38,929 nucleotides of DNA from a virus (lineage: Duplodnaviria; Heunggongvirae; Uroviricota; Caudoviricetes). The DNA is taken from IMG/VR virus record IMGVR_UViG_3300045836_000108, positions 64,001 through 102,929 of that record; one strand, 5' to 3'. Both the position numbers and the translations under genes were made by a program. The notes beneath the pieces were generated by a model that was not told the origin of the DNA, ran no database searches, and saw only the letters and a list, made by a program, of their open reading frames with translations. Position 1 is the stretch's first letter. Each line of letters begins with the position of its first letter. Below, in pieces: positions 2,761 to 10,625 of this stretch.

Positions 2761-2794
2761 AAAAGGGGGTGCCCCAGGCCACAGAGGCACCCCC
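2761..2794 (-). terminator. intrinsic terminator after the Ro60 gene
   Basis: ggggtgcc/ggcacccc stem followed by UUUU on the minus strand. Confidence 0.7.
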
Positions 2795-2801
2795 TAGCTT
2801 G

Positions 2802-4433
2802 CTACAGCTCCCACGGCCAACCGGCGTCGTGGCCCCGCGACAGCAAGTCCATCATCTTGAACATGGCGTCGCTGAACCCGCCGATCTCGTACCGGTTCGG
2901 AGCCGACGTGTTGATGGTTGCCTTCTCGTAGCCGTTGGTGTTGATGCCGAACATCGGTACGTCCGGCGGCAGCGTCTCCGACACAGACTGCCTGCCGTAG
3001 GACCACGCCTGCATGTCGGAGACGATGATCACGCGCTTGTGGATCGTTTCCCGGTACGTGGCCCTCAGAGCCTCTACGGTGCGGGTGCCGTGGCCAACGG
3101 AGCCGTTCTTGGCCTTGAACGCTTCGATCTGACGCAGCGCGCTGCCAGCCTTGTTAATGTTGTGCGGGAACTGGCCGTCGGCGAACCCGATCAGGTCCAC
3201 CTCGTTACCGCGCATCGCCAACGCCACGCCGATCAGAGCGCCCACGTCCTCGTGCGTCACCTGCGACTTGGAGGAAACCCGACCCTGCATGGAACCAGAG
3301 GTGTCCACCAACACCAGGCTGCGCCCGTCCAGCTTAGGAAGCGCGGAACACGCAGCATCCAAGCCCTTGTCCAGGGCGTGGCCCCAACGCAGCGACGGCG
3401 CTGCCCGGTACGCCGACAGCAGCCGGTACGGAAACACCCGTGCCTTGCGGATGTCCTCCGGGTCGGAAAGCCGCTCGCACACCGCCTTGGCGACGTCGTC
3501 GGACACCCCGGCCACGTCGAAGTTCCGCAGGTTCCGCATCAAGGCAAACGCCCCCATGGCCGGGATGATCGCTTCCCAAGCGGCCTTGTCCATCGGCCCC
3601 TGGAGCCAACCGGCCAGAGCCTCCCACGTCATGCCAGCCTCGATCAGACGCTGCGACGCGTCCTTGGAGCGGACCAGCTTGCGGCGCTCCGGAACCGGCA
3701 TAGCCATCAGGGCCTGCCGCGCCATCAGGGTCTTGTTGCCCTCCGGCAGCCGGGCGTCCGGACGGTTGTGACGCTTGTCGATGATGTACCGGAACAGTTC
3801 GCCCTGGTAGGACTTGTCCCTGGCCGGGGACGGGTGGGTCAGCTCCAGAACGTCAGCGAACCGGTAGCCGCTGTCCGAGTCCCACTTCAGGAAGTTCTTG
3901 CCGGTGTACAGCTCCTGAACAGCGTCGGCCACACCGCGCTTCACCGGCTTGGGGATGCGGCGGCCGAAGCGGGAAGTCCAGTACGCCAGCAGCTCACCCT
4001 GTTCGTCGGCGCGGACGCAGGCGGCCTTGATGATCCGCCGGTTGAGTCCGTCATTTTCCTGCGGCACGCCCGGCAGAGGCTCCTCGTACAGGGCCAGACG
4101 GGCGTGCACGGCCTCACACGCCGCGACGATGGATGCGGACCGCATGTTGGCCTTGTCGCGGAGCCACGTCACGAAATCCAGCGTCCAGCTGCCGTCCGCG
4201 ACGGCGACCTTGCGGACCAGTTCCCGGTACCGCTGATCACGGGTGTTGGCGTCCTCATAGAACGTGGCCTCGCCCACCATGTTGGTGACGGCCAACAGAA
4301 CCAGAGCCGACTTGTCGTCGTGGACCCACGCCTTGCCGCCTTCGTGGCTGACGGTCTGGACGCCGGTGTTCCCCATGGGCGACTTGGCCGGGTGGACGTA
4401 CGGCTTGGCTTCATTGGTGTTGAACTTGGCCAT
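2802..4433 (-). CDS. rsr: Ro60/Rsr orthologue (TROVE domain plus C-terminal vWA, 543 aa)
   Basis: TROVE hallmarks EATFYE, WLRDKANMRS, RRIPKPVKRGVADA, MTWEAL, MGAFALMRNLRNF, FPYRLLSAY; vWA MIDAS LVDTSGSM, GHGT, IIVSDMQ; RBS AAGGAGG. Confidence 0.95.
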   Translation of the reverse strand: MAKFNTNEAKPYVHPAKSPMGNTGVQTVSHEGGKAWVHDDKSALVLLAVTNMVGEATFYEDANTRDQRYRELVRKVAVADGSWTLDFVTWLRDKANMRSASIVAACEAVHARLALYEEPLPGVPQENDGLNRRIIKAACVRADEQGELLAYWTSRFGRRIPKPVKRGVADAVQELYTGKNFLKWDSDSGYRFADVLELTHPSPARDKSYQGELFRYIIDKRHNRPDARLPEGNKTLMARQALMAMPVPERRKLVRSKDASQRLIEAGMTWEALAGWLQGPMDKAAWEAIIPAMGAFALMRNLRNFDVAGVSDDVAKAVCERLSDPEDIRKARVFPYRLLSAYRAAPSLRWGHALDKGLDAACSALPKLDGRSLVLVDTSGSMQGRVSSKSQVTHEDVGALIGVALAMRGNEVDLIGFADGQFPHNINKAGSALRQIEAFKAKNGSVGHGTRTVEALRATYRETIHKRVIIVSDMQAWSYGRQSVSETLPPDVPMFGINTNGYEKATINTSAPNRYEIGGFSDAMFKMMDLLSRGHDAGWPWEL

Positions 4434-4464: not shown

Positions 4465-4597
4465 ACGCGGAGGCGTCCGAGATCCAGGCGGCGATGGTTT
4501 CACCGCCCCTTGCGGGGGCGGGTTCAGGGATTGAACCTGTTCCTTGTAAAGGAGTTACCGAAGTAACCATCACCTGCGCACCGGACGCGTTACGCGT
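4465..4597 (-). ncRNA. Y-RNA-like element Y1 (T arm, loop-closed acceptor, no D arm, UAC loop)
   Basis: Ends pair (GCGUCCG/CGGACGC); shared motifs GGUGCGCAGG..ACUUC and GGAUCUC; T arm CAGG-UUCAAUC-CCUG; acceptor hairpin CCGCCCC/GGGGCGG; immediately upstream of Ro60. Confidence 0.75.
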
Positions 4598-4599
4598 CT

Positions 4600-4738
4600 C
4601 CTCCCGAGATCCAATCGGCTGCGGTCAGCAGGGCCGGAGTCGAACCGGCGACCTCCGCCTTACCTTGGCGGTGCTCTACCACCTGAGCTACCCGGATGAA
4701 GTGGTATCCGAAGTAACCGCTGCCTGCGCACCGGGAGG
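4600..4738 (-). ncRNA. Y-RNA-like element Y2 enclosing a normal-order tRNA-Thr(GGU)-like body
   Basis: Terminal stem CCUCCCG/CGGGAGG with Y motifs; interior D arm GCUC/GAGC, anticodon arm CCGCC-AAGGUAA-GGCGG, T arm GCCGG-UUCGACU-CCGGC, only 4-bp acceptor. Confidence 0.75.
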
Positions 4739-4751
4739 TGCACTTGTTCAG

Positions 4752-4905
4752 TTGTGTAGTCCTGAGATCCAAGACGGCGGAGGCTTCCGTGGAGGCCGCT
4801 GTCTTAGGCCGCTAGACGACCGCCCCGTACGGCGCGGACAGGATTCGAACCTGCGATAGGCGGCTTAGGTAAGAAGTATCCCCAACCTACGCACCAGGAC
4901 CACAA
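4752..4905 (-). ncRNA. yrlA: Y-RNA-like element Y3, YrlA-type (tRNA module opened at the anticodon loop)
   Basis: Order: Y 5' strand, GCCGC, T arm GCAGG-UUCGAAU-CCUGU, acceptor hairpin CCGCGCC/GGGGCGG, Glu-like D arm GUCU-AGCGGCCUA-AGAC, GCGGC, Y 3' strand GGAUCUC. Confidence 0.75.
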
Positions 4906-4909
4906 TGTT

Positions 4910-5056
4910 TTGACCTGCCCGAGTTCCAAGCGACTTGGGCAACGTTACATGTTGCCAGTTACACCACGGCCCCGAGGATGGAGCCGACGGGACTCGAACC
5001 CGCATCTTCAAATTTCCAGTTCGAAGTAGCCCAGGTCTTCGCACCGGGCAGGTCAA
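4910..5056 (-). ncRNA. Y-RNA-like element Y4, circularly permuted tRNA module with intact GGA anticodon arm and G3.U70 acceptor
   Basis: 12-bp terminal stem UUGACCUGCCCG/CGGGCAGGUCAA; GGUGCGAAG motif; CUUCGAA-CUGGAAA-UUUGAAG, then T arm, then CGGCUCC-A-UCCUC-GGGGCCG, then D arm GUGU/ACAU. Confidence 0.78.
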
Positions 5057-5104
5057 GCTTGAGCGCCGTCCCCCGGCCGGGGGGGTCGCGGGGGGACGGC
5101 GCAG

Positions 5105-5187
5105 TGAGCGGTGAGGGAATCGAACCCCCGACGCCGAAGCGACGGCTTTACAGGCCGCTGTGACATACCAACAGTCACCAACCGCAC
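5105..5187 (-). tRNA. trnY: tRNA-Tyr(GUA)
   Basis: Cloverleaf with anticodon loop CUGUAAA, long variable arm CGC-UUCG-GCG, T loop UUCGAUU; one acceptor mismatch; no encoded CCA. Confidence 0.85.
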
Positions 5188-5277
5188 TAGTGGCAGATGT
5201 TGGACAGGGTATCTGCCAGACCCATCGCGACCCAACGACTCAGGCTGACCTTTCTCCAAGCCCGCGTTGGGAGCCCG

Positions 5278-5351
5278 TAGCGCGTACCGGATTCGAACCG
5301 GCGATCTTCTCCTTGAAAGGGAGGTGTCCTAGACCTCTAGACGAACGCGCC
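5278..5351 (-). tRNA. trnE: tRNA-Glu(UUC)
   Basis: GGCGCGU/ACGCGCU acceptor, GUCUAGAGGUCUAGGAC D arm, loop CUUUCAA, GGUUCGAAUCC. Confidence 0.9.
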
Positions 5352-5394
5352 TCGCGCGGTCCCCAAGTACAGCCCCGGGGACCACCTTTAGCTG

Positions 5395-5508
5395 CTAGTA
5401 GCCCAAACCGGGCTGGCGGTGCGGGCCGGTCCAGTCGTTGGATTCCGGCTGCTCCTTCTCCTGCTCCTCTTCCTCGTCCGTGTCCGGCGTCTCCGGTTCG
5501 TCGGTCAT
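5395..5508 (-). CDS. 37-aa acidic micro-protein inside the tRNA array
   Basis: CCGGAGGAGAAAAACA-ATG; MTDEPETPDTDEEEEQEKEQPESNDWTGPHRQPGLGY; below the ORF-track cutoff. Confidence 0.6.
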   Translation of the reverse strand: MTDEPETPDTDEEEEQEKEQPESNDWTGPHRQPGLGY

Positions 5509-5601
5509 TGTTTTTCTCCTCCGGTTGCGTGCGGCAGACTCCGCGTGAGGCGGCCTGCCAGCGCCCTGTCCCTACCCGCCCCCACGCGGATAGCACGCGA
5601 G

Positions 5602-5672
5602 CTGCCCTAGCAGGATTCGAACCTGCATTCACTGATCCAAAGTCAGGTGTCCTGCCGTTGGACGATAGGGCA
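5602..5672 (-). tRNA. trnQ: tRNA-Gln(UUG)
   Basis: UGCCCUA/UAGGGCA acceptor, loop CUUUGGA, GGUUCGAAUCC, G73. Confidence 0.92.
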
Positions 5673-5945
5673 GAGTAACGGCCGGTGGCCACCGGCCGTT
5701 ACGCCGTTCTCAGCAAACCGGCCCAGCGTCCGGCACTTTGGGATAACCCTCTGGGCGCTTCTCAGCCTCCTGGCCTTGGCGTGCCAGTACAAGCAGCTCC
5801 ACGGCTCGTGGTCCCCGGAGGGCTTCCCGTTCAATAAGCTCCTGGACCGTCTCGGATAACAGACAAGGCGGGTCAGGAGCGGCAGACTTTGCGCCCTGGG
5901 GTCTGCCTCCCAGGTTCTTCACCGCCCCGTAGGGCGGTACGCGCG

Positions 5946-6017
5946 TACCTCCGGCGGGATTCGAACCCGCGTCAGTCCGCTTAGAAGGCGGTTTCCCATC
6001 CTCTGGGCGACGGAGGT
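5946..6017 (-). tRNA. trnR: tRNA-Arg(UCU)
   Basis: ACCUCCG/CGGAGGU acceptor, loop CUUCUAA, T arm GCGGG-UUCGAAU-CCCGC. Confidence 0.85.
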
Positions 6018-6044
6018 ACGACCGACAAGAGCCGGTCGGGCACT

Positions 6045-6140
6045 TCAGTCCTTCTTGCCGTGGATGCAGCAGCTGCAATAGCCGCAGCAGGAGCCGCTTC
6101 TACAGTTCTTGCACTTCGCTCCCACAAACACCTTCAACAA
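6045..6140 (-). CDS. 31-aa Cys-rich micro-protein inside the tRNA array
   Basis: GGAGGAG RBS 6 nt before TTG; MLKVFVGAKCKNCRSGSCCGYCSCCIHGKKD (7 Cys, 1 His); below the ORF-track cutoff. Confidence 0.6.
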   Translation of the reverse strand: MLKVFVGAKCKNCRSGSCCGYCSCCIHGKKD

Positions 6141-6276
6141 GCGCTTCTCCTCCGGACGGCGTCTGCTACAGGCAGACGTTGGACCAAGGGGCCTGCCAGC
6201 CCTTTCGCAACCCGTAGGTGACACTACGGTGGCCCGTTCCCTTACCCACCCGCCAGTCGTAACAGATAGGGAGGGG

Positions 6277-6350
6277 TAGGCCGCCAGGGGCTCGAACCCT
6301 GAACTCCCTGGTTAAAAGCCAGGTACTCTGCCAGCTTGAGTTAGCGACCC
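6277..6350 (-). tRNA. trnK: tRNA-Lys(UUU)
   Basis: GGGUCGC/GCGGCCU acceptor, CCUGG-CUUUUAA-CCAGG, GGUUCGAGCC. Confidence 0.92.
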
Positions 6351-6667
6351 AAAATGTTGGTCTACCCCACGTACCAACGCGCCTGGTCCAACTCTTCTCT
6401 CCAGGCTCCCGAGACGGACTAGCAGTGACGCGTGTGCCGCTTCCGTCCTCCCCCTTGCGGGGGTTGCTCTAATGCCTGCTATTTGGGGCAGCAGGCGCAG
6501 TAGCCGCAGTGTCTGATCAAGCCGCAGCTACAGATCGTGTTGGCCGATGTCAGCATCCGCTTGAAACGCTTCATCGTCCCCTCCTCTCTGGAGCCGGACG
6601 TCACCGGCCCAGCCTCCAACAACGCTCAATGAAGTTGGAAACCGCGCACGGGCCGGTGACGCCGACG

Positions 6668-6742
6668 TACCCTCAACAGGATTCGAACCTGCACTGTTCT
6701 GCTCCTAAGGCAGACGCCTCCTACCAGTTGGGCTATGAGGGC
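6668..6742 (-). tRNA. trnL: tRNA-Leu(UAG), short variable loop
   Basis: GCCCUCA/UGAGGGU, UCUGC-CUUAGGA-GCAGA, 5-nt variable region ACAGU, A73. Confidence 0.85.
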
Positions 6743-6935
6743 GCGAGGCCCACCGTCCTCCATCGGGCCCGTCGGCCGATATCCAGGCGGACGGTGGGTC
6801 TCTTCAAAGTCCAGGCGGGGAGGCTGTGCCCTAGCTGGCCGCTCAACGGGGGCTTCGCGGCTTCCGGTCCGGGCACTAGTACGGGGCGCTGACCACGGTG
6901 AGCCGTACTGCCTGGTCAGTCCCTTCCTGGACTTG

Positions 6936-7010
6936 CGCTTGTGACGGGACTTGAACCCGCGACCTTCTCCTTGACAGGGAGATGAGCACTCCAGGCTGCT
7001 CCACACAAGC
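6936..7010 (-). tRNA. trnD: tRNA-Asp(GUC)
   Basis: GCUUGUG/CACAAGC, GGAGCAGCCUGGAGUGCUC D arm, loop CUGUCAA, G73. Confidence 0.92.
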
Positions 7011-7081
7011 ATTGACGGCATACAGCGCCCCGGGTATGCCAGCCGGGTATGCACCCACCCCAGAAGGGGTTCAGTTGCGCG

Positions 7082-7153
7082 CGTCCTCGCCAGGGATCGA
7101 ACCTGGGCGCTCCGGACTTCAACCGGATGCTCTTCCAACTGAGCTACAAGGAC
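7082..7153 (-). tRNA. trnF: tRNA-Phe(GAA), atypical G37/U38 and G73
   Basis: GUCCUUG/CGAGGAC, UCCGG-UUGAAGU-CCGGA, CCAGG-UUCGAUC-CCUGG. Confidence 0.82.
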
Positions 7154-7315
7154 AAGCCGCTTGCCTGCTGATCAATGACCCACCCAGGACGCGGTGTAGT
7201 GTCCGGAGATCTCCTGCCGGTTCTACAACGGCAAGCGGCGGCAGACGTGTGCACGGGGTCTGCTAGCCCGCGACCGCTTACGCGGCCTCCGGGGGAGGAG
7301 GAGCGTTAGCGCACG

Positions 7316-7391
7316 TAGCGCAGGTGGGATTTGAACCCACGATCTTTGGGTTATGAGCCCAACGGGATGGACCTAGCTTCCCTACTGCGCG
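7316..7391 (-). tRNA. trnfM: initiator tRNA-fMet(CAU)
   Basis: Unpaired C1:U72, anticodon stem UUGGG/CCCAA with three G-C pairs, loop CUCAUAA. Confidence 0.85.
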
Positions 7392-7608
7392 TCGCGTCCG
7401 TTGTGATCAGTGAAGGAGTCGGGACCCGTCCTGGGATTTGCCCAGGCTCTACACCAACGGACTGAGACAGACGTTCCGCACAGCGGTCTGTCAGCGCTGC
7501 ATCACGGTGGACCCGTTGACGTGAGCGGACGGCAAACAGTTGCACCCGGAGGTTTGCCAGCTCCGGCCGTCGCGAACCCCCCAACCCTTGAGACGTTCCG
7601 CGCGTGCG

Positions 7609-7679
7609 AGCCTTCTGCGGGTGTCGAACCCACGTCTCCACCATGGCAAGGTGGTGTCCTACCGTTGGACTAAGAAGGC
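7609..7679 (-). tRNA. trnG: tRNA-Gly(GCC)
   Basis: GCCUUCU/AGAAGGC, CCACC-UUGCCAU-GGUGG, U73. Confidence 0.9.
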
Positions 7680-7747
7680 GTGCCCGTCCGGCAGTGGGAG
7701 CCGGACGGGACACCGCCACCGTCCCTGGACATGACAGGGGCGGGGGC

Positions 7748-7823
7748 TGGAGCCACCTGCGGGATTCGAACCCGCTATCTGTCGCTTACGAGGCGACCGC
7801 ATGTCCCAACTTGCTCCGGTGGC
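7748..7823 (-). tRNA. trnT: tRNA-Thr(CGU) with encoded CCA
   Basis: GUCGC-CUCGUAA-GCGAC, GCGGG-UUCGAAU-CCCGC, ends UCCA; 7:66 mismatch. Confidence 0.8.
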
Positions 7824-7990
7824 GCGGCGATCATTGCGTGGGGGGATCGCCAACCCCCATCCCAGCTCCCAGCAGGGTCGAAAGGAGTAAAGCCCCCTGC
7901 CGGGGCCAACGCGGTGACGGTTTGTGCGTACAGGTACCGCCGGACCTGTTCTAGTCGCCACCGCACGAGTAAGGCACGGCGGCTGACGCG

Positions 7991-8062
7991 TGGCCCTACC
8001 AGGAATCGAACCTGGACCCCCACCTTCGGAGAGTGGTGCGCTATCCGTTGCGCTACAAGGCC
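7991..8062 (-). tRNA. trnR: tRNA-Arg(CCG)
   Basis: GGCCUUG/UAGGGCC, GCGC-AACGGAUA-GCGC D arm, loop CUCCGAA. Confidence 0.88.
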
Positions 8063-8299
8063 GTGCGGGAGGAGAGGCAGCGCCGACATGTACCTCTAGG
8101 CCTTCTGCGCAGAAGGCTGTTTCTTCTCCCTGACGCCGGTTGATGTCGTCTCACCGGCGGTACTGCGGTACGGCGTCGGACTTCAGTCACCTGCCTCTCC
8201 GACAAGGCCCCCGCCACCCAGAGCCGTGTAATGAGCAGGGTTGGGAAATCAGGCGGGGAAGGCGCGGCCTCCCCGGGTTTGGAGAGGTCGCCGTACCAG

Positions 8300-8372
8300 C
8301 TGGCCCGGCAGGACTCGAACCTGCGGTAGCCGACTTAACAGGTCGGTGCCGTACCAACTTGGCTACGGGCCA
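8300..8372 (-). tRNA. trnN: tRNA-Asn(GUU)
   Basis: UGGCCCG/CGGGCCA, CCGAC-CUGUUAA-GUCGG, G73. Confidence 0.92.
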
Positions 8373-8499
8373 TCGACCTGGGAAGGTGCGCACCCTCCCA
8401 GGGTTGAAGGACAAGCTGGAGACCCGTCGTAGTGCTGAGACCCACTAAACGGGGCGTCGCCAGTTCTCAGTTCTAAGCGCTCCCTTTCCTGTTCCTCCG

Positions 8500-8571
8500 T
8501 GCCCTCACAGGGATTTGAACCCCAAACCTGCTGCTTGTAGGGCAGCTGCTCTGCCGTTGAGCTATAAGGGC
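8500..8571 (-). tRNA. trnV: tRNA-Val(UAC)
   Basis: GCCCUUA/UGAGGGC, GCUGC-CCUACAA-GCAGC, A73. Confidence 0.9.
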
Positions 8572-8803
8572 GTAGCCCGGTCGTTTTGTTCAGGTGACCG
8601 GCAGGCCTGACTCTGGTCGGTCCGGCTCGCGGGGTGCTAGCCCGGTCTACGGACCGCAGATCGCATATCTGGCGACCAGGGACGCGCGCTGCTGGCTTGC
8701 CGCGTCGTTCCCCTGCTGAACCAAGCCAGTCCGGCACACAGGGGACCTGCTGCGACGCGCACCCCCAGCGGATCGGGGAGGATACGGGAGAGGTGCGCGT
8801 CAG

Positions 8804-8876
8804 TGTCCCCGGCAGGAATCGAACCTGCAATCGCTGGATTCGTAGTCCAGTGCCTTATCCGTTAGGCCACGGAGAC
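8804..8876 (-). tRNA. trnR: tRNA-Arg(ACG)
   Basis: GUCUCCG/CGGGGAC, CUGGA-CUACGAA-UCCAG, A20-containing D loop. Confidence 0.92.
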
Positions 8877-8987
8877 GTGACGGCTTTGTGCAGAACCAGC
8901 GCCGCCGTTCTGGTGAGTAGAGCATCCGGCCCCAGACGCAGCCGACGGGTAGGGAGTCGGATACGCCTTGGGCTTTGGCCCTCTGCG

Positions 8988-9062
8988 TGCTCTCGGCGGG
9001 AGTCGAACCCGCACTGTACGTGGTTTGAGCGCGTCGCCTCTGCCTAGTTGGGCTACGAGAGC
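8988..9062 (-). tRNA. trnL: tRNA-Leu(CAA), short variable loop
   Basis: GCUCUCG/CGAGAGC, loop CUCAAAC, one anticodon-stem mismatch, variable region ACAGU. Confidence 0.82.
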
Positions 9063-9182
9063 TTGGGGCGCAGCCCCGCGCAGGAGGAGAAGACACTGCG
9101 CGGGGCCGCTTATCCCAGGGTTGTTTCCAGAGGGTGGTGAGTTGTAAGCCAAACCAACGCGTCCGCAACGGTCCTGGGATCG

Positions 9183-9259
9183 TCCTCACGGGTGGATTCG
9201 AACCAACCGATCTCCGTCTTATCAGGACGGCGCTCTGAGCCAGGCTGAGCCACGTGAGG
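9183..9259 (-). tRNA. trnI: tRNA-Ile(GAU)
   Basis: CCUCACG/CGUGAGG, CCGUC-CUGAUAA-GACGG; bulged T stem. Confidence 0.85.
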
Positions 9260-9386
9260 TTTGTCGGTTGTGCGGCCTCCATGGAGGCAGGCCGCCACCG
9301 ACGTCTACGTTCTTCTACATCATCGTCACTGTTGAGTTCTCAAGTATCCAGGAACTTCGCGCCCAAGGTACAAACGCGTTCCTTTG

Positions 9387-9700
9387 TGCGGTGGCGCGGA
9401 ATCGAACCACGCAGGCCGGTCAGGCTTAGCCAACATACGTCGGCCGTACGCATCCCGTAGAGGCTGGCAGACTATGACACCTGCCCGTCGCCTTGTCCCT
9501 CAGGACCCCTATCCAGGGCACCGCTTGTTTAGTTGTTGTGCGGGCTTCCGGATTTGCACCGGAAGCCGGGCCGTGCACTGCCACTCTCCCGCCTTGGGAC
9601 CCGCGTGGCGGGCCCGTTTTCCTCCTTGTGGAGGACACCCGTCCAGTTGGACCTGGAAGGTTCCGGCGTTGCAACCCCACGGGCCAACAGGGTCGTCGCC
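9387..9700 (-). ncRNA. unassigned structured spacer ending in a T-arm-like hairpin
   Basis: CGUGG-UUCGAUU-CCGCG near the 3' end; 9-bp hairpin with UGCAAAU loop at 9543-9567; no complete cloverleaf found. Confidence 0.3.
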
Positions 9701-9704
9701 TTAG

Positions 9705-9777
9705 GGTGATGTGCGGGAATCGAACCCACTACAACCTGGACCACAACCAGGTGCCCAACCGGAGGGCCTACACCACC
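9705..9777 (-). tRNA. trnH: tRNA-His(GUG) with encoded G-1:C73
   Basis: 8-bp acceptor GGUGGUGU/ACAUCACC, CCUGG-UUGUGGU-CCAGG. Confidence 0.88.
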
Positions 9778-9781
9778 AAGT

Positions 9782-9856
9782 GAGACCGCCAGAGATCCGG
9801 ACGGCTGCGGCCTGTTCCCAACGAAGTATCCGCTGCCTGCGCACCTGGCGGTGCTC
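9782..9856 (-). ncRNA. Y-RNA-like element Y5, minimal (75 nt, no tRNA module)
   Basis: CCGCCAG/CUGGCGG terminal stem, GGUGCGCAGGCAGCGGAUACUUC, short interior, CCGUCCGGAUCUC. Confidence 0.72.
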
Positions 9857-9871
9857 TGAAGTTTTAGTTGT

Positions 9872-10017
9872 TGTACCCCACCAGAGGTCTAGTCGGCCAG
9901 GCAGATCGTAGGTGCTCTGCCGCTGAGCTACGGTCCCGGGGGACCGGCAGGATTCGAACCTGCGACAACCCGCTTAGAAGGCGAAGAACTCCTGGCCTGC
10001 GCACCTGGTGGGGTGCA
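9872..10017 (-). ncRNA. Y-RNA-like element Y6, circularly permuted tRNA-Arg(UCU)-like module
   Basis: UGCACCCCACCAG/CUGGUGGGGUACA terminal stem; GGUGCGCAGG..UCUUC; UUCGC-CUUCUAA-GCGGG, T arm GCAGG-UUCGAAU-CCUGC, CGGUCCC-CC-GGGACCG, D arm GCUC-AGCGGCA-GAGC. Confidence 0.78.
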
Positions 10018-10112: not shown

Positions 10113-10625
10113 TCACAACGGCCCCATCCAGTCCGCCGCAGTCCGTACCAAGATCCCAGCGTCACGAGCCATACGCATACACCCCGTAGTCCCAGACTTC
10201 TCCCTCAACGGGAAAGCCAACACGACGTCGGCGCCCAACGCAACCATCTTCCTGTTGCGCCTGGGACCGGCCTTAGGACACCAGTCCTCCAACGTTCCCG
10301 GGTGGAGCCTGTCCCCCGGTTGGCGGCGCACCCGGTGGGGCTTAGAAGGGCATCCGGAACCGCAAGAATCCCAATCCGCCGGATGCCGCTCCGGCGTCCA
10401 ACCCCACGATGTCCAGAGCCGGTCCGCTATCGCGTCGGCTCCGGTAGAGCAGGCACCGTGCACCAGGACAGGAGAAAGCCCGAAGTCCTGTGCCGTCGCC
10501 ACGTATTCACGGAGCGCTCGGCGTACAGGCCCTTCGGGCTTCCAGTCGCGGGATCCTATCAACAAGATCCTGTAGGTGTCAGGTTCCAGCAGCGTCGGCG
10601 CGGCCAATCGAGAACGTGCCGTCAC
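10113..10625 (-). CDS. SLOG-superfamily (DUF2493/YspA-like) protein
   Basis: RILLIGSRDW, LVHGAC.TGADAIA, HPADW, AGPRRNRKM, VLAFP, SGTTGCMRMA. Confidence 0.8.
   Translation of the reverse strand: MTARSRLAAPTLLEPDTYRILLIGSRDWKPEGPVRRALREYVATAQDFGLSPVLVHGACSTGADAIADRLWTSWGWTPERHPADWDSCGSGCPSKPHRVRRQPGDRLHPGTLEDWCPKAGPRRNRKMVALGADVVLAFPLREKSGTTGCMRMARDAGILVRTAADWMGPL

What the first reader, a model, noticed from the sequence alone, without database searches (positions are those of the whole stretch)
4465..10017. The Y RNAs form a panel of different tRNA fusion topologies and anticodon loops
Seen: the Y stem is attached at different points of the tRNA fold. In Y3 it opens the anticodon loop (classical YrlA layout). 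In Y4 and Y6 it sits between the D arm and an intact anticodon arm. In Y2 it extends the acceptor end of a normal-order tRNA. Y1 lacks a D arm and Y5 has no tRNA module. Four present 7-nt anticodon-like loops: UAC (4546-4548), GGU (4662-4664), GGA (5015-5017), UCU (9976-9978). Established: the YrlA RNAs I recall are described as D/T/acceptor mimics with the Ro stem replacing the anticodon arm. Inference: a diversified set of Ro60-tethered decoys or sensors for anticodon-specific nucleases, or adaptors that bring different tRNA-binding enzymes to Ro60.
Basis: partly seen in the sequence, partly recalled or inferred. Interest (0 to 1): 0.85.

Follow-up and report, generated by a model that had tools for sequence, protein, structure and literature searches.

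The report
Phage Y RNAs with rewired tRNA modules
An uncultivated soil phage encodes six small Y RNAs beside its Ro60 gene; each joins the same Ro60-binding stem to a differently cut tRNA look-alike, and related phages carry similar sets, so this is a family trait with two wirings I found in no paper I could read.

Summary
The six elements are real YrlA-family Y RNAs. They lie on the minus strand and share a 5' GGUGCGNAG…UACUUC and 3' GGAUCUC frame, next to a TROVE/vWA Ro60 gene and an 18-tRNA array. The four loop coordinates are correct.

- **Y3** is the classical layout.
- **Y6** (and, less clearly, Y4) carries the stem-loop that Chen et al. 2014 call "V". Covariation across related phage loci shows it is a composite anticodon arm. 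The two outer pairs come from the strand after the D arm (28-42 Watson-Crick in 30 of 34). The inner pairs come from the 5' strand. The Y stem therefore branches at 28|29.
- **Y2** is misdescribed. Five homologues show a closed, covarying 7-bp acceptor hairpin with an invariant encoded N-CCA, so it is a third permutation.
- **Y1** is a degenerate form without a D arm, and its "anticodon loop" is weak. **Y5** has no tRNA module.

Arrays of 3-6 such RNAs flank Ro60 in many viral contigs and, unannotated, in Streptomyces phages BRock and GiJojo.

Anticodon triplets are not conserved between the closest relatives. The anticodon loop varies in size among Y2-type homologues. This argues against anticodon-specific decoys and for adaptors read at the elbow and acceptor end. 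Other readers in this scan noted similar arrays on other DNA. Verdict: new variant of a known kind.

The parts
2802..4433 (-). Ro60 (Rsr) orthologue, 543 aa
   Evidence: Pfam TROVE 2.2e-13; a vWA_2 match at E 1e-4 is below Pfam's gathering score (23.4 vs 27 bits). 36-42% identical to 'Ro-like RNA binding protein' of Streptomyces, Gordonia and Arthrobacter phages.
2764..2795 (-). Terminator-like hairpin just after Ro60; likely end of the Y RNA-tRNA-Ro60 transcription unit
   Evidence: 12-bp stem followed by a T run.
4473..4588 (-). Y1: Y stem, weak hairpin (4541-4553, loop UUUACAA), T-loop-like element (4525-4539), closed 7-bp acceptor hairpin (4503-4521); no D arm
   Evidence: Fold alternatives compete (UUCG hairpin; 5-bp stem with 3-nt loop).
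4600..4738 (-). Y2: Y stem, closed acceptor hairpin with ACCA in the loop (4691-4712), D arm (4673-4688), anticodon-like arm (4655-4671, loop AAGGUAA), AGGUC linker, T arm (4633-4649), then linker back to the Y stem
   Evidence: Five homologues in other viral contigs.
4756..4903 (-). Y3: classical YrlA. Long-range anticodon stem GCCGC (4860-4864) with GCGGC (4795-4799), T arm (4838-4854), closed acceptor (4820-4837), D arm (4801-4817)
   Evidence: Rfam YrlA alignment over model positions 23-85; 5/5 anticodon-stem pairs; coordinates.
4913..5053 (-). Y4: Y stem, 7-bp hairpin with loop CUGGAAA (5006-5026), T arm (4987-5003), closed acceptor with G3.U70 and A73 (4967-4986), D arm (4949-4964)
   Evidence: Rfam YrlA hit over the full model, with the hairpin treated as an insertion. 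Orthologues in L121 and L006.
5104..9776 (-). Array of 18 ordinary tRNA genes between Y4 and Y5
   Evidence: Only 1 of the 18 encodes CCA.
9785..9853 (-). Y5: short Y RNA with Ro60-binding stem and UACUUC loop, no tRNA module
   Evidence: Short Y RNAs of this kind accompany the long ones in nearly every related locus.
9876..10013 (-). Y6: Y stem, anticodon-like hairpin (9969-9985, loop CUUCUAA), UUGUC linker, T arm (9947-9963), acceptor strands joined by only CC (9931-9946), D arm (9914-9928), A26 (9913), then C27 C28 (9912-9911) that can pair with G43 G42 (9969-9970)
   Evidence: Shares a 14-mer with the anticodon arm of the phage's tRNA-Arg(UCU).

Best explanation
The six elements are phage-encoded Y RNAs of the YrlA kind. 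They probably lie in one transcription unit with the tRNA array and the Ro60 gene. Each has the same Ro60-binding stem and the same junction motifs: 5' UAC-UU and, in most long forms, 3' CC-UACGU. Each then carries a different tRNA-derived module.

The modules are one tRNA fold entered by the Y stem at different places:
- In the anticodon loop: Y3, the classical layout.
- Two base pairs into the anticodon stem, between 28 and 29: Y6 and most actinophage YrlAs. This leaves a complete 5-bp stem and 7-nt loop anticodon arm. Y4 is a long-hairpin variant.
- At the T-stem/acceptor junction, 65|66 or possibly 67|68: Y2. Here the acceptor is a closed hairpin that encodes N73-CCA.
- Y1 is a degenerate form with a T-loop-like element and a closed acceptor hairpin but no D arm.
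- Y5 has none.

Inferred mechanism. Ro60 binds the common stem. The tRNA-like part, above all the conserved elbow and the 7-bp acceptor end, recruits host tRNA-handling proteins such as RNase P, CCA-adding enzyme, modification enzymes, PNPase or repair enzymes. RNase P may open the acceptor hairpin, as shown for M. smegmatis YrlA, to give a two-piece tRNA mimic held on Ro60.

Shown here: sequence, homologues and covariation. Inferred: Ro60 binding, processing and effector recruitment.
For: Motif enrichment: 5 matches against 0.02 expected. A TROVE-domain ORF lies adjacent. Rfam YrlA gives sub-threshold hits. A mycobacteriophage of the group in which YrlA was described (ScottMcG) also scores only 36 bits against a threshold of 69.

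Ro60 genes 35-59% identical are flanked by 2-6 such RNAs in all 18 multi-Y contigs tested by tblastn. The same holds, unannotated, in Streptomyces phages GiJojo and BRock.

RNAalifold on 24 hairpin-type members finds compensatory changes in 26 of 34 pairs, in the Y stem, T arm, acceptor and D arm.

Hairpin geometry: the distance from UAC to the T stem peaks at 21-22 nt (36 of 65), and 24 of those 36 have a perfect 5-bp stem with 7-nt loop. Pairs 4 and 5 covary.

Composite stem: 27-43 is C-G in 31 of 34. 28-42 is Watson-Crick in 30 of 34, with CG, UA, AU and GC types. No shuffle of 20,000 reached that value, and 7 of 20,000 did when only distinct combinations were counted. ScottMcG shows the same arrangement, with only 3 nt on the 5' strand.

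Y2 type: six members all have 7/7 acceptor pairs, the outer four pairs covary, and N-CCA is invariant. Only 1 of 18 true tRNA genes here encodes CCA.

In most of 59 related Y RNAs a closed acceptor stem (at least 6 of 7 pairs) follows the T arm directly; UA and a D arm follow in 32 of them. M. smegmatis YrlA with a 7-bp stem is cut by RNase P and receives CCA in vivo (PMC4201824).
Against: None of the six reaches the Rfam YrlA gathering score.

A 2-bp outer helix is thermodynamically weak and is not predicted by RNAfold or RNAalifold. The covariation comes from related sequences, perhaps 5-7 independent changes.

For Y2 the choice between a branch at 65|66 and one at 67|68 cannot be made, because G6, G7 and the CC after the T stem never vary.

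The Y1 module is poorly defined. The effector proteins are unknown even for the well-studied YrlAs (PMC4201824 and bioRxiv 10.1101/312249).
Confidence: 0.68

Rival explanations
1. Anticodon-specific decoys or sensors. Each Y RNA shows a particular anticodon loop to a host anticodon nuclease. It either soaks the nuclease up or reports the attack to Ro60 and the phage repair enzymes.
For: Hairpin loops keep anticodon-loop shape: U33 in 22 of the 24 perfect hairpins, and a purine at 37 in 33 of the 36 hairpins with 21-22-nt spacing. The Y6 hairpin shares a 14-mer with the anticodon arm of the phage's own tRNA-Arg(UCU). The Y4 loop CUGGAAA is kept in L121 although the stem has completely covaried. 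The locus sits with an RNA ligase, a Pnkp-type phosphatase and a tRNA array. A competitive-inhibitor role for YrlA has been suggested in print (PMC7790460).
Against: Triplets differ between the closest syntenic relatives. The commonest loop, CUGCUAA, recurs in long and short Y RNAs of many contigs, which looks like a fixed motif rather than a diversified panel. In the Y2 type the loop is 3-12 nt and often non-canonical, and Y2 itself lacks U33. Part of the Y6 14-mer is the stem CGC/GCGG that its whole subfamily shares. No nuclease partner is known.
Confidence: 0.15
2. Processed, working two-piece tRNAs or tmRNA-like molecules. RNase P opens the acceptor hairpin, a CCA end is exposed or added, and the Ro60-tethered RNA is aminoacylated (for example Y4 by AlaRS).
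For: 7-bp acceptor stems are usual (at least 6 of 7 pairs in the 59 Y RNAs). Some acceptor 'loops' are only 2 nt, including Y6. N-CCA is invariant in all six Y2-type members. G3.U70 with A73 is kept in Y4, its L006 orthologue, L121 and a GiJojo Y RNA. [quoted passage not shown]
Against: Aminoacylation has not been shown for any Y RNA. A bulky Y stem branching from the anticodon or acceptor stem would probably block ribosome use. The Y2 loop lacks U33. There is no mRNA-like tag region.
Confidence: 0.1
3. Decaying by-products of recombination within a tRNA array: pseudo-tRNAs fused to a repeated stem, with no function of their own beyond perhaps one canonical YrlA.
For: Module content changes quickly. 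The closest relative has six Y RNAs of partly different types and no Y2 type. Y1 is degenerate. The Y6 hairpin may come from a conversion patch from tRNA-Arg(UCU).
Against: Compensatory changes keep the stems paired in each subtype. N-CCA is invariant while the acceptor stems diverge fully. The same subtypes recur with Ro60 genes only 35-50% identical.
Confidence: 0.07

Closest known systems
YrlA (Y RNA-like A; Rfam RF02553; Chen et al. 2014, PMC4201824; crystal structure 6CU1, bioRxiv 10.1101/312249)
   Same: Encoded next to Ro60 on the same strand. A 5' GCGAAG/GCGCAG motif resembles GNCGAAN0-1G, and the YUAY motif is conserved. In Y3, Y4 and Y6 the T arm comes before the D arm with a closed acceptor stem between them. 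Several per locus and presence in phages were already reported, as was a 'V' stem-loop upstream of the T arm.
   Different: Scores are below the Rfam threshold. The Rfam consensus has no hairpin. Here the 'V' hairpin behaves as the distal part of an anticodon arm, closed by two pairs from the post-D strand. Y2 has the opposite arm order with an encoded CCA. The arrays hold up to six members of mixed types.
Deinococcus radiodurans Yrn1 (Rfam RF01053)
   Same: A Ro60-bound Y RNA. The paper describes the T- and D-like arms as oriented the other way round than in YrlA, with an anticodon-position stem-loop between them, as in Y2. It shares the GGUUACUUC motif.
   Different: As described, Yrn1 has no full D arm; the paper mentions no closed acceptor hairpin or encoded CCA for it. 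The paper reports a 6-nt 'anticodon loop' and no dihydrouridine. Y1 matches the model only at E = 1.9.
Circularly permuted tRNA genes (algae and one archaeon) and the dimeric-tRNA origin model for YrlA; both mentioned in bioRxiv 10.1101/312249
   Same: The 3' part of the acceptor precedes the 5' part, and processing at the acceptor could give mature-like ends. Y2 is a permuted tRNA in this sense.
   Different: Those permuted genes yield ordinary tRNAs after processing (my recollection; the paper's text on this was cut off). Here the break is occupied by a Ro60-binding stem, and the anticodon loop is often non-canonical.
Thermus phage phiLo Ro60 with Yrl1 and Yrl2 (PMC12135203)
   Same: A phage Ro60 with Y-like RNAs encoded upstream. 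Binding was shown, and a PNPase ternary complex formed in vitro.
   Different: Those RNAs are described as stem-bulge-stem Y RNAs with a CGAA motif. No tRNA-like modules or arrays of mixed topologies are described.

Membership tests
YrlA / bacterial Y RNA (RF02553) | Encoded within about 4 kb of a Ro60 (TROVE) gene, on the same strand | tested here: met
   Y1-Y4 lie 40-620 nt upstream of ORF 2802-4433. Y5 and Y6 lie about 5.4-5.6 kb upstream, beyond the tRNA array.
YrlA / bacterial Y RNA (RF02553) | 5' Ro60-binding motif (GNCGAAN0-1G-like) within a terminal stem formed by the 5' and 3' ends | tested here: met
   GGUGCG(A/C/U)AG in all six, with an 8-10-bp basal stem and a 3' GGAUCUC-like strand. 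The motif is close to the published consensus but not identical.
YrlA / bacterial Y RNA (RF02553) | tRNA-like domain in the order T arm, closed acceptor stem, D arm | tested here: inconclusive
   Met by Y3, Y4 and Y6. Not met by Y2 (acceptor, D, anticodon, T), Y1 (no D arm) or Y5 (none).
YrlA / bacterial Y RNA (RF02553) | Score at or above the Rfam gathering threshold (69 bits) | tested here: not met
   44, 25.3 and 21.2 bits. A Bxz1-type mycobacteriophage YrlA also scores only 36.1 bits, so the threshold is not sensitive for phage members.
YrlA / bacterial Y RNA (RF02553) | Bound by Ro60 in vivo | not testable with these tools
   Needs immunoprecipitation.
tRNA (RF00005), for Y2 only | Cloverleaf with a 7-bp acceptor stem made of the 5' and 3' ends, and a canonical anticodon loop with U33 | tested here: not met
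   The Rfam match covers only model positions 4-67 (40.2 bits). The loop is AAGGUAA. The 7-bp acceptor is made with the upstream strand as a closed hairpin.
Deinococcus Y RNA (RF01053) | Significant match to the covariance model | tested here: not met
   Y1 scores 17.7 bits, E = 1.9, against a threshold of 80.

The most novel reading that the evidence does not exclude
Actinophage Ro60 loci encode a modular library of Ro60-tethered split-tRNA mimics. One portable cassette (Y stem with 5' UACUU and 3' CC-UACGU junctions) is inserted two base pairs into either the anticodon stem or the acceptor stem of a tRNA. RNase P then opens the acceptor hairpin. The particle displays a complete anticodon arm and a genuine, in one subclass genome-encoded, CCA end. 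Such particles could be charged, or could act as bait or sensors for tRNA-targeting host defences during infection.
Probability: 0.15. Interest if true: 0.85.

Novelty: new variant of a known kind. Interest (0 to 1): 0.62.

Why it matters
The effector side of bacterial and phage Y RNAs is the open question in this field: nobody knows what the tRNA-like domain binds.

This work gives testable constraints from sequence alone. In this phage lineage the same Ro60 handle carries several wirings of one tRNA fold. The published "V arm" is, by covariation, part of a full anticodon arm. One subclass keeps an encoded CCA while letting the anticodon loop vary. The conserved surface is therefore the elbow plus the acceptor end.

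The work also points to cultured, tractable systems. Streptomyces phages BRock and GiJojo carry unannotated arrays, and one of these RNAs is mis-annotated as tRNA-Arg in GiJojo.

Tried and rejected
- Megablast of the region against GenBank phages found nothing.
Essentially all were GC-rich chance matches, and only L121, already known, was a true Y4 type.
- The scan GGTTCRANNCC…TGATCTC returned mostly ordinary tRNAs; none of its loci proved to be a Y2 type.
It says nothing about presence in cellular genomes.
- blastn of Y2 against phages hit only ordinary tRNA genes, for example a suppressor tRNA in Myrna.
- The MAFFT alignment A1 places the 4-nt versus 5-nt linker gap inside the hairpin. RNAalifold therefore missed the hairpin, and I did not use the count of structure pairs on it. 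I counted pairs on motif-anchored sequences in Python instead.
- I considered a competing 6-bp hairpin in Y4 (4938-4956) and rejected it. Orthologues lack it, and it would disrupt both the D arm and the Y stem.
Its first two pairs, G7 and G6 with the CC after the T stem, remain possible as a composite helix.
The reviews PMC10870794 and PMC6047535, and the supplements of Chen 2014, were not held. I therefore could not check how the V arm is drawn there.

Full report
**Setting.** The window is the right end of a 102.9-kb IMG/VR virus record with terminal repeats. The features on the minus strand, read 5' to 3', are:
- Y6 and Y5.
- 18 ordinary tRNA genes.
- Y4, Y3, Y2 and Y1.
- A 543-aa ORF with a TROVE domain and a weaker, sub-threshold vWA match, the architecture expected of a Ro60 protein.
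- A terminator-like hairpin.

An RNA ligase gene and a Pnkp-type phosphatase gene flank the unit. The Ro60 protein is 36-42% identical to 'Ro-like RNA binding proteins' of Streptomyces, Gordonia and Arthrobacter phages. Nothing in GenBank phages is close at the DNA level.

**Are the six elements real?** All six share three features:
- a 5' GGUGCG(A/C/U)AG;
- a (U/A/C)UACUUC motif 7-9 nt later (UUCUUC in Y6);
- a 3' GGAUCUC-like strand that closes an 8-10-bp basal stem.

The 5' pattern occurs five times against 0.02 expected. Rfam YrlA gives sub-threshold matches to Y6, Y4 and Y3. A Bxz1-type mycobacteriophage, from the group in which YrlA was first described, also reaches only 36 bits. The threshold is therefore not informative for phage members.

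The same frame recurs upstream or downstream of Ro60 genes that are 35-59% identical:
- Most of the 25 viral contigs found through the protein have 2-5 such RNAs.
- A motif scan found arrays of 3-6, and all 18 multi-Y contigs tested by tblastn have a Ro60 gene beside them.
- The closest relative, L006, has six with GUUGCG in place of GGUGCG.
- Cultured Streptomyces phages GiJojo and BRock have 4-5 unannotated ones. In GiJojo the annotated 'tRNA-Arg(cct)' overlaps one of them.

**Y3.** The Rfam consensus is a four-way junction in which the Y stem continues the anticodon stem, with no extra hairpin. Y3 fits it. A 5/5 long-range stem (GCCGC with GCGGC) leads into a CUAUC linker, T arm, closed acceptor stem and D arm. 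L007 and L009 carry the same type.

**Y6 and Y4.** Both have a hairpin between the Y stem and the T arm. Chen et al. 2014 already describe such a stem-loop as 'V' in many YrlAs, including actinobacterial and mycobacteriophage ones (PMC4201824). The secondary-structure element itself is therefore not new.

What the comparative data add is the following. Among 65 related Y RNAs with a T arm, the distance from UAC to the T stem peaks sharply at 21-22 nt (36 cases). That equals a 17-nt anticodon arm plus a 4-5-nt variable loop. Twenty-four of the 36 have a perfect 5-bp stem with a 7-nt loop. The inner pairs covary (GC, CG, UA, AU). The loops are almost all YU-NNN-RA, followed by an AGGUC-like linker.

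More tellingly, the two nucleotides after N26 on the 3' side of the D arm pair with the last two nucleotides of the hairpin. Pair 27-43 is C-G in 31 of 34. Pair 28-42 is Watson-Crick in 30 of 34, with CG (17), UA (11), AU and GC. The invariant U of the UACUU motif cannot explain the AU and GC cases. No shuffle of 20,000 reached the observed value, and 7 of 20,000 did when only the 15 distinct combinations were used. Positions 30-31 of the post-D strand do not pair.

In mycobacteriophage ScottMcG the 5' strand supplies only three nucleotides (CUC/GAG, loop AUUGCAA). The post-D CU pairs with the following AG.

My reading is a composite anticodon arm. The outer two pairs come from the 3' half, the inner three from the 5' half, and the Y stem leaves between 28 and 29. 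Y6 fits exactly (C27 and C28 at 9912-9911 with G43 and G42 at 9969-9970). Y4 is a variant with a 7-bp hairpin and a 2-nt linker. So are its orthologues in L006 and GiJojo. The composite reading is less clear for these.

**Y2.** tRNA finders call a tRNA-Thr(GGU) inside it. The match lacks the acceptor ends and the loop is AAGGUAA, without U33. The MFE fold pairs the presumed 5' acceptor strand with the sequence just upstream.

Five homologues in other viral contigs settle the matter (L164, L166, L168, L172, L648). The first four lie beside a Ro60 gene; L648 was not tested for one. In all six members the seven acceptor pairs are formed with the upstream strand. The four outer pairs differ between members. 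The loop always begins with N73-CCA (A, G, A, A, A, U, then CCA). Only one of the window's 18 genuine tRNA genes encodes CCA.

The order is therefore: acceptor 3' strand, NCCA, spacer, acceptor 5' strand, D arm, anticodon arm, variable loop, T arm, then a CC(Y)-rich linker back to the Y stem. This is a third permutation, not a normal tRNA whose acceptor is extended.

By analogy with the anticodon-stem case, the invariant CC after the T stem may pair with G7 and G6, which would put the branch at 67|68. These positions never vary, so this cannot be tested here.

The anticodon loop of this subclass is not conserved in size: 7, 7, 6, 6, 3-5 and 12 nt.

**Y1 and Y5.** Y5 is a short Y RNA of a kind that accompanies the long ones almost everywhere. 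Y1 has a T-loop-like element and a 7-bp closed acceptor hairpin, separated by 2-3 extra nucleotides, and no D arm. Its 'UAC loop' has a 3-bp stem that can zip further, and a UUCG hairpin competes. Forms without a D arm exist elsewhere, for example in L106.

**Conservation of 'anticodons'.**
- Between the window and its closest relative, the syntenic RNAs keep their overall type, but loops change. Y4 has GGA and L006 has AUUUGAA, although L121 keeps CUGGAAA over a fully covaried stem. Y6 has UCU and L006 has a larger GCU-containing loop.
- CUGCUAA and its GNU relatives recur in many contigs, even in short Y RNAs.
- The Y6 hairpin shares a 14-mer with the phage's tRNA-Arg(UCU). Seven of those nucleotides are the stem that the whole Y6 subfamily has. 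A conversion patch or selection are both possible.

**Function.** What stays constant across subtypes is the D arm, the T arm, the variable-loop pyrimidine, a 7-bp acceptor stem (in most of 59 cases) and, in the Y2 type, the CCA. This matches the published view that effectors read the elbow (bioRxiv 10.1101/312249). It also matches the finding that M. smegmatis YrlA is cut by RNase P and receives CCA in vivo. Five acceptor 'loops', including that of Y6, are only 2 nt, which favours an opened, two-piece state.

I therefore favour Ro60-tethered tRNA mimics that recruit tRNA-handling proteins. Anticodon-specific decoys, already floated for YrlA (PMC7790460), are a minority possibility.

**Novelty.** Already known:
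- phage and bacterial YrlAs;
- several per locus;
- the V stem-loop;
- the opposite arm order of Deinococcus Yrn1;
- the dimeric-tRNA origin model.

I found three points in no paper I could read: covariation evidence for a composite anticodon arm, the Y2-type permutation with encoded CCA, and mixed arrays as a regular feature of actinophage Ro60 loci. Two reviews and the 2014 supplements were not available.

Other readers in this scan have noted similar Ro60/Y-RNA arrays on other DNA, including 'opposite arm orders'. I did not test those.

Noticed in passing
window 4967-4986 (Y4 acceptor); L006 about 2080-2100; L121; L540 about 3835-3855: The Y4-type acceptor keeps G3.U70 and A73, the alanine identity set that tmRNA also has, in the window, L006 (GGGGCGG/CCGCUCC-A-CC), L121 and GiJojo, while other acceptor positions change. 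Rfam permuted and cyanobacterial tmRNA models give weak hits here.
   Followed up: partly
window 9380-9705 (-) and L006:1680-1942: The roughly 310-nt spacer after tRNA-His is partly conserved in the closest relative (about 70% over the aligned part), with blocks such as GGUGUCAUAG, GCUAAGCC and a T-arm-like GGUUCNAYUCC near its 3' end. No Rfam match. It may be another structured RNA.
   Followed up: partly
window 6479-6574 (-) and 6045-6140 (-): Two small ORFs inside the tRNA array encode Cys-rich peptides with a shared C-terminal motif (…CGYCACCPK and …CCGYCSCCIHGKKD). A third small ORF at 5395-5508 (-) encodes a very acidic 37-aa peptide.
   Followed up: no
L540 3769-3843 (Streptomyces phage GiJojo gene 29): The annotated tRNA-Arg(cct) overlaps the 5' half of a Y RNA (Y stem, hairpin, T arm). 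ARAGORN makes the same kind of call on several YrlA 5' halves.
   Followed up: partly
All long Y RNAs; e.g. window 9905-9912 and 4627-4632: A 3' junction motif CC-UACGU / CCCGUU precedes the 3' strand of the Y stem in both the hairpin type (after the D arm) and the Y2 type (after the T arm). It mirrors the 5' UAC-UU motif, as if one cassette had been inserted into different helices.
   Followed up: partly
L541 6079-6242 (Streptomyces phage BRock): Near-threshold manA RNA match (49.7 bits against 55.2) between two tRNA-Lys genes downstream of the Ro-like gene.
   Followed up: no
window 10113-10625 (-): A YspA/SLOG-family (YAcAr) ORF lies just upstream of Y6, preceded by the only promoter-like site found on this strand between it and Ro60 (10582-10553).
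   Followed up: no
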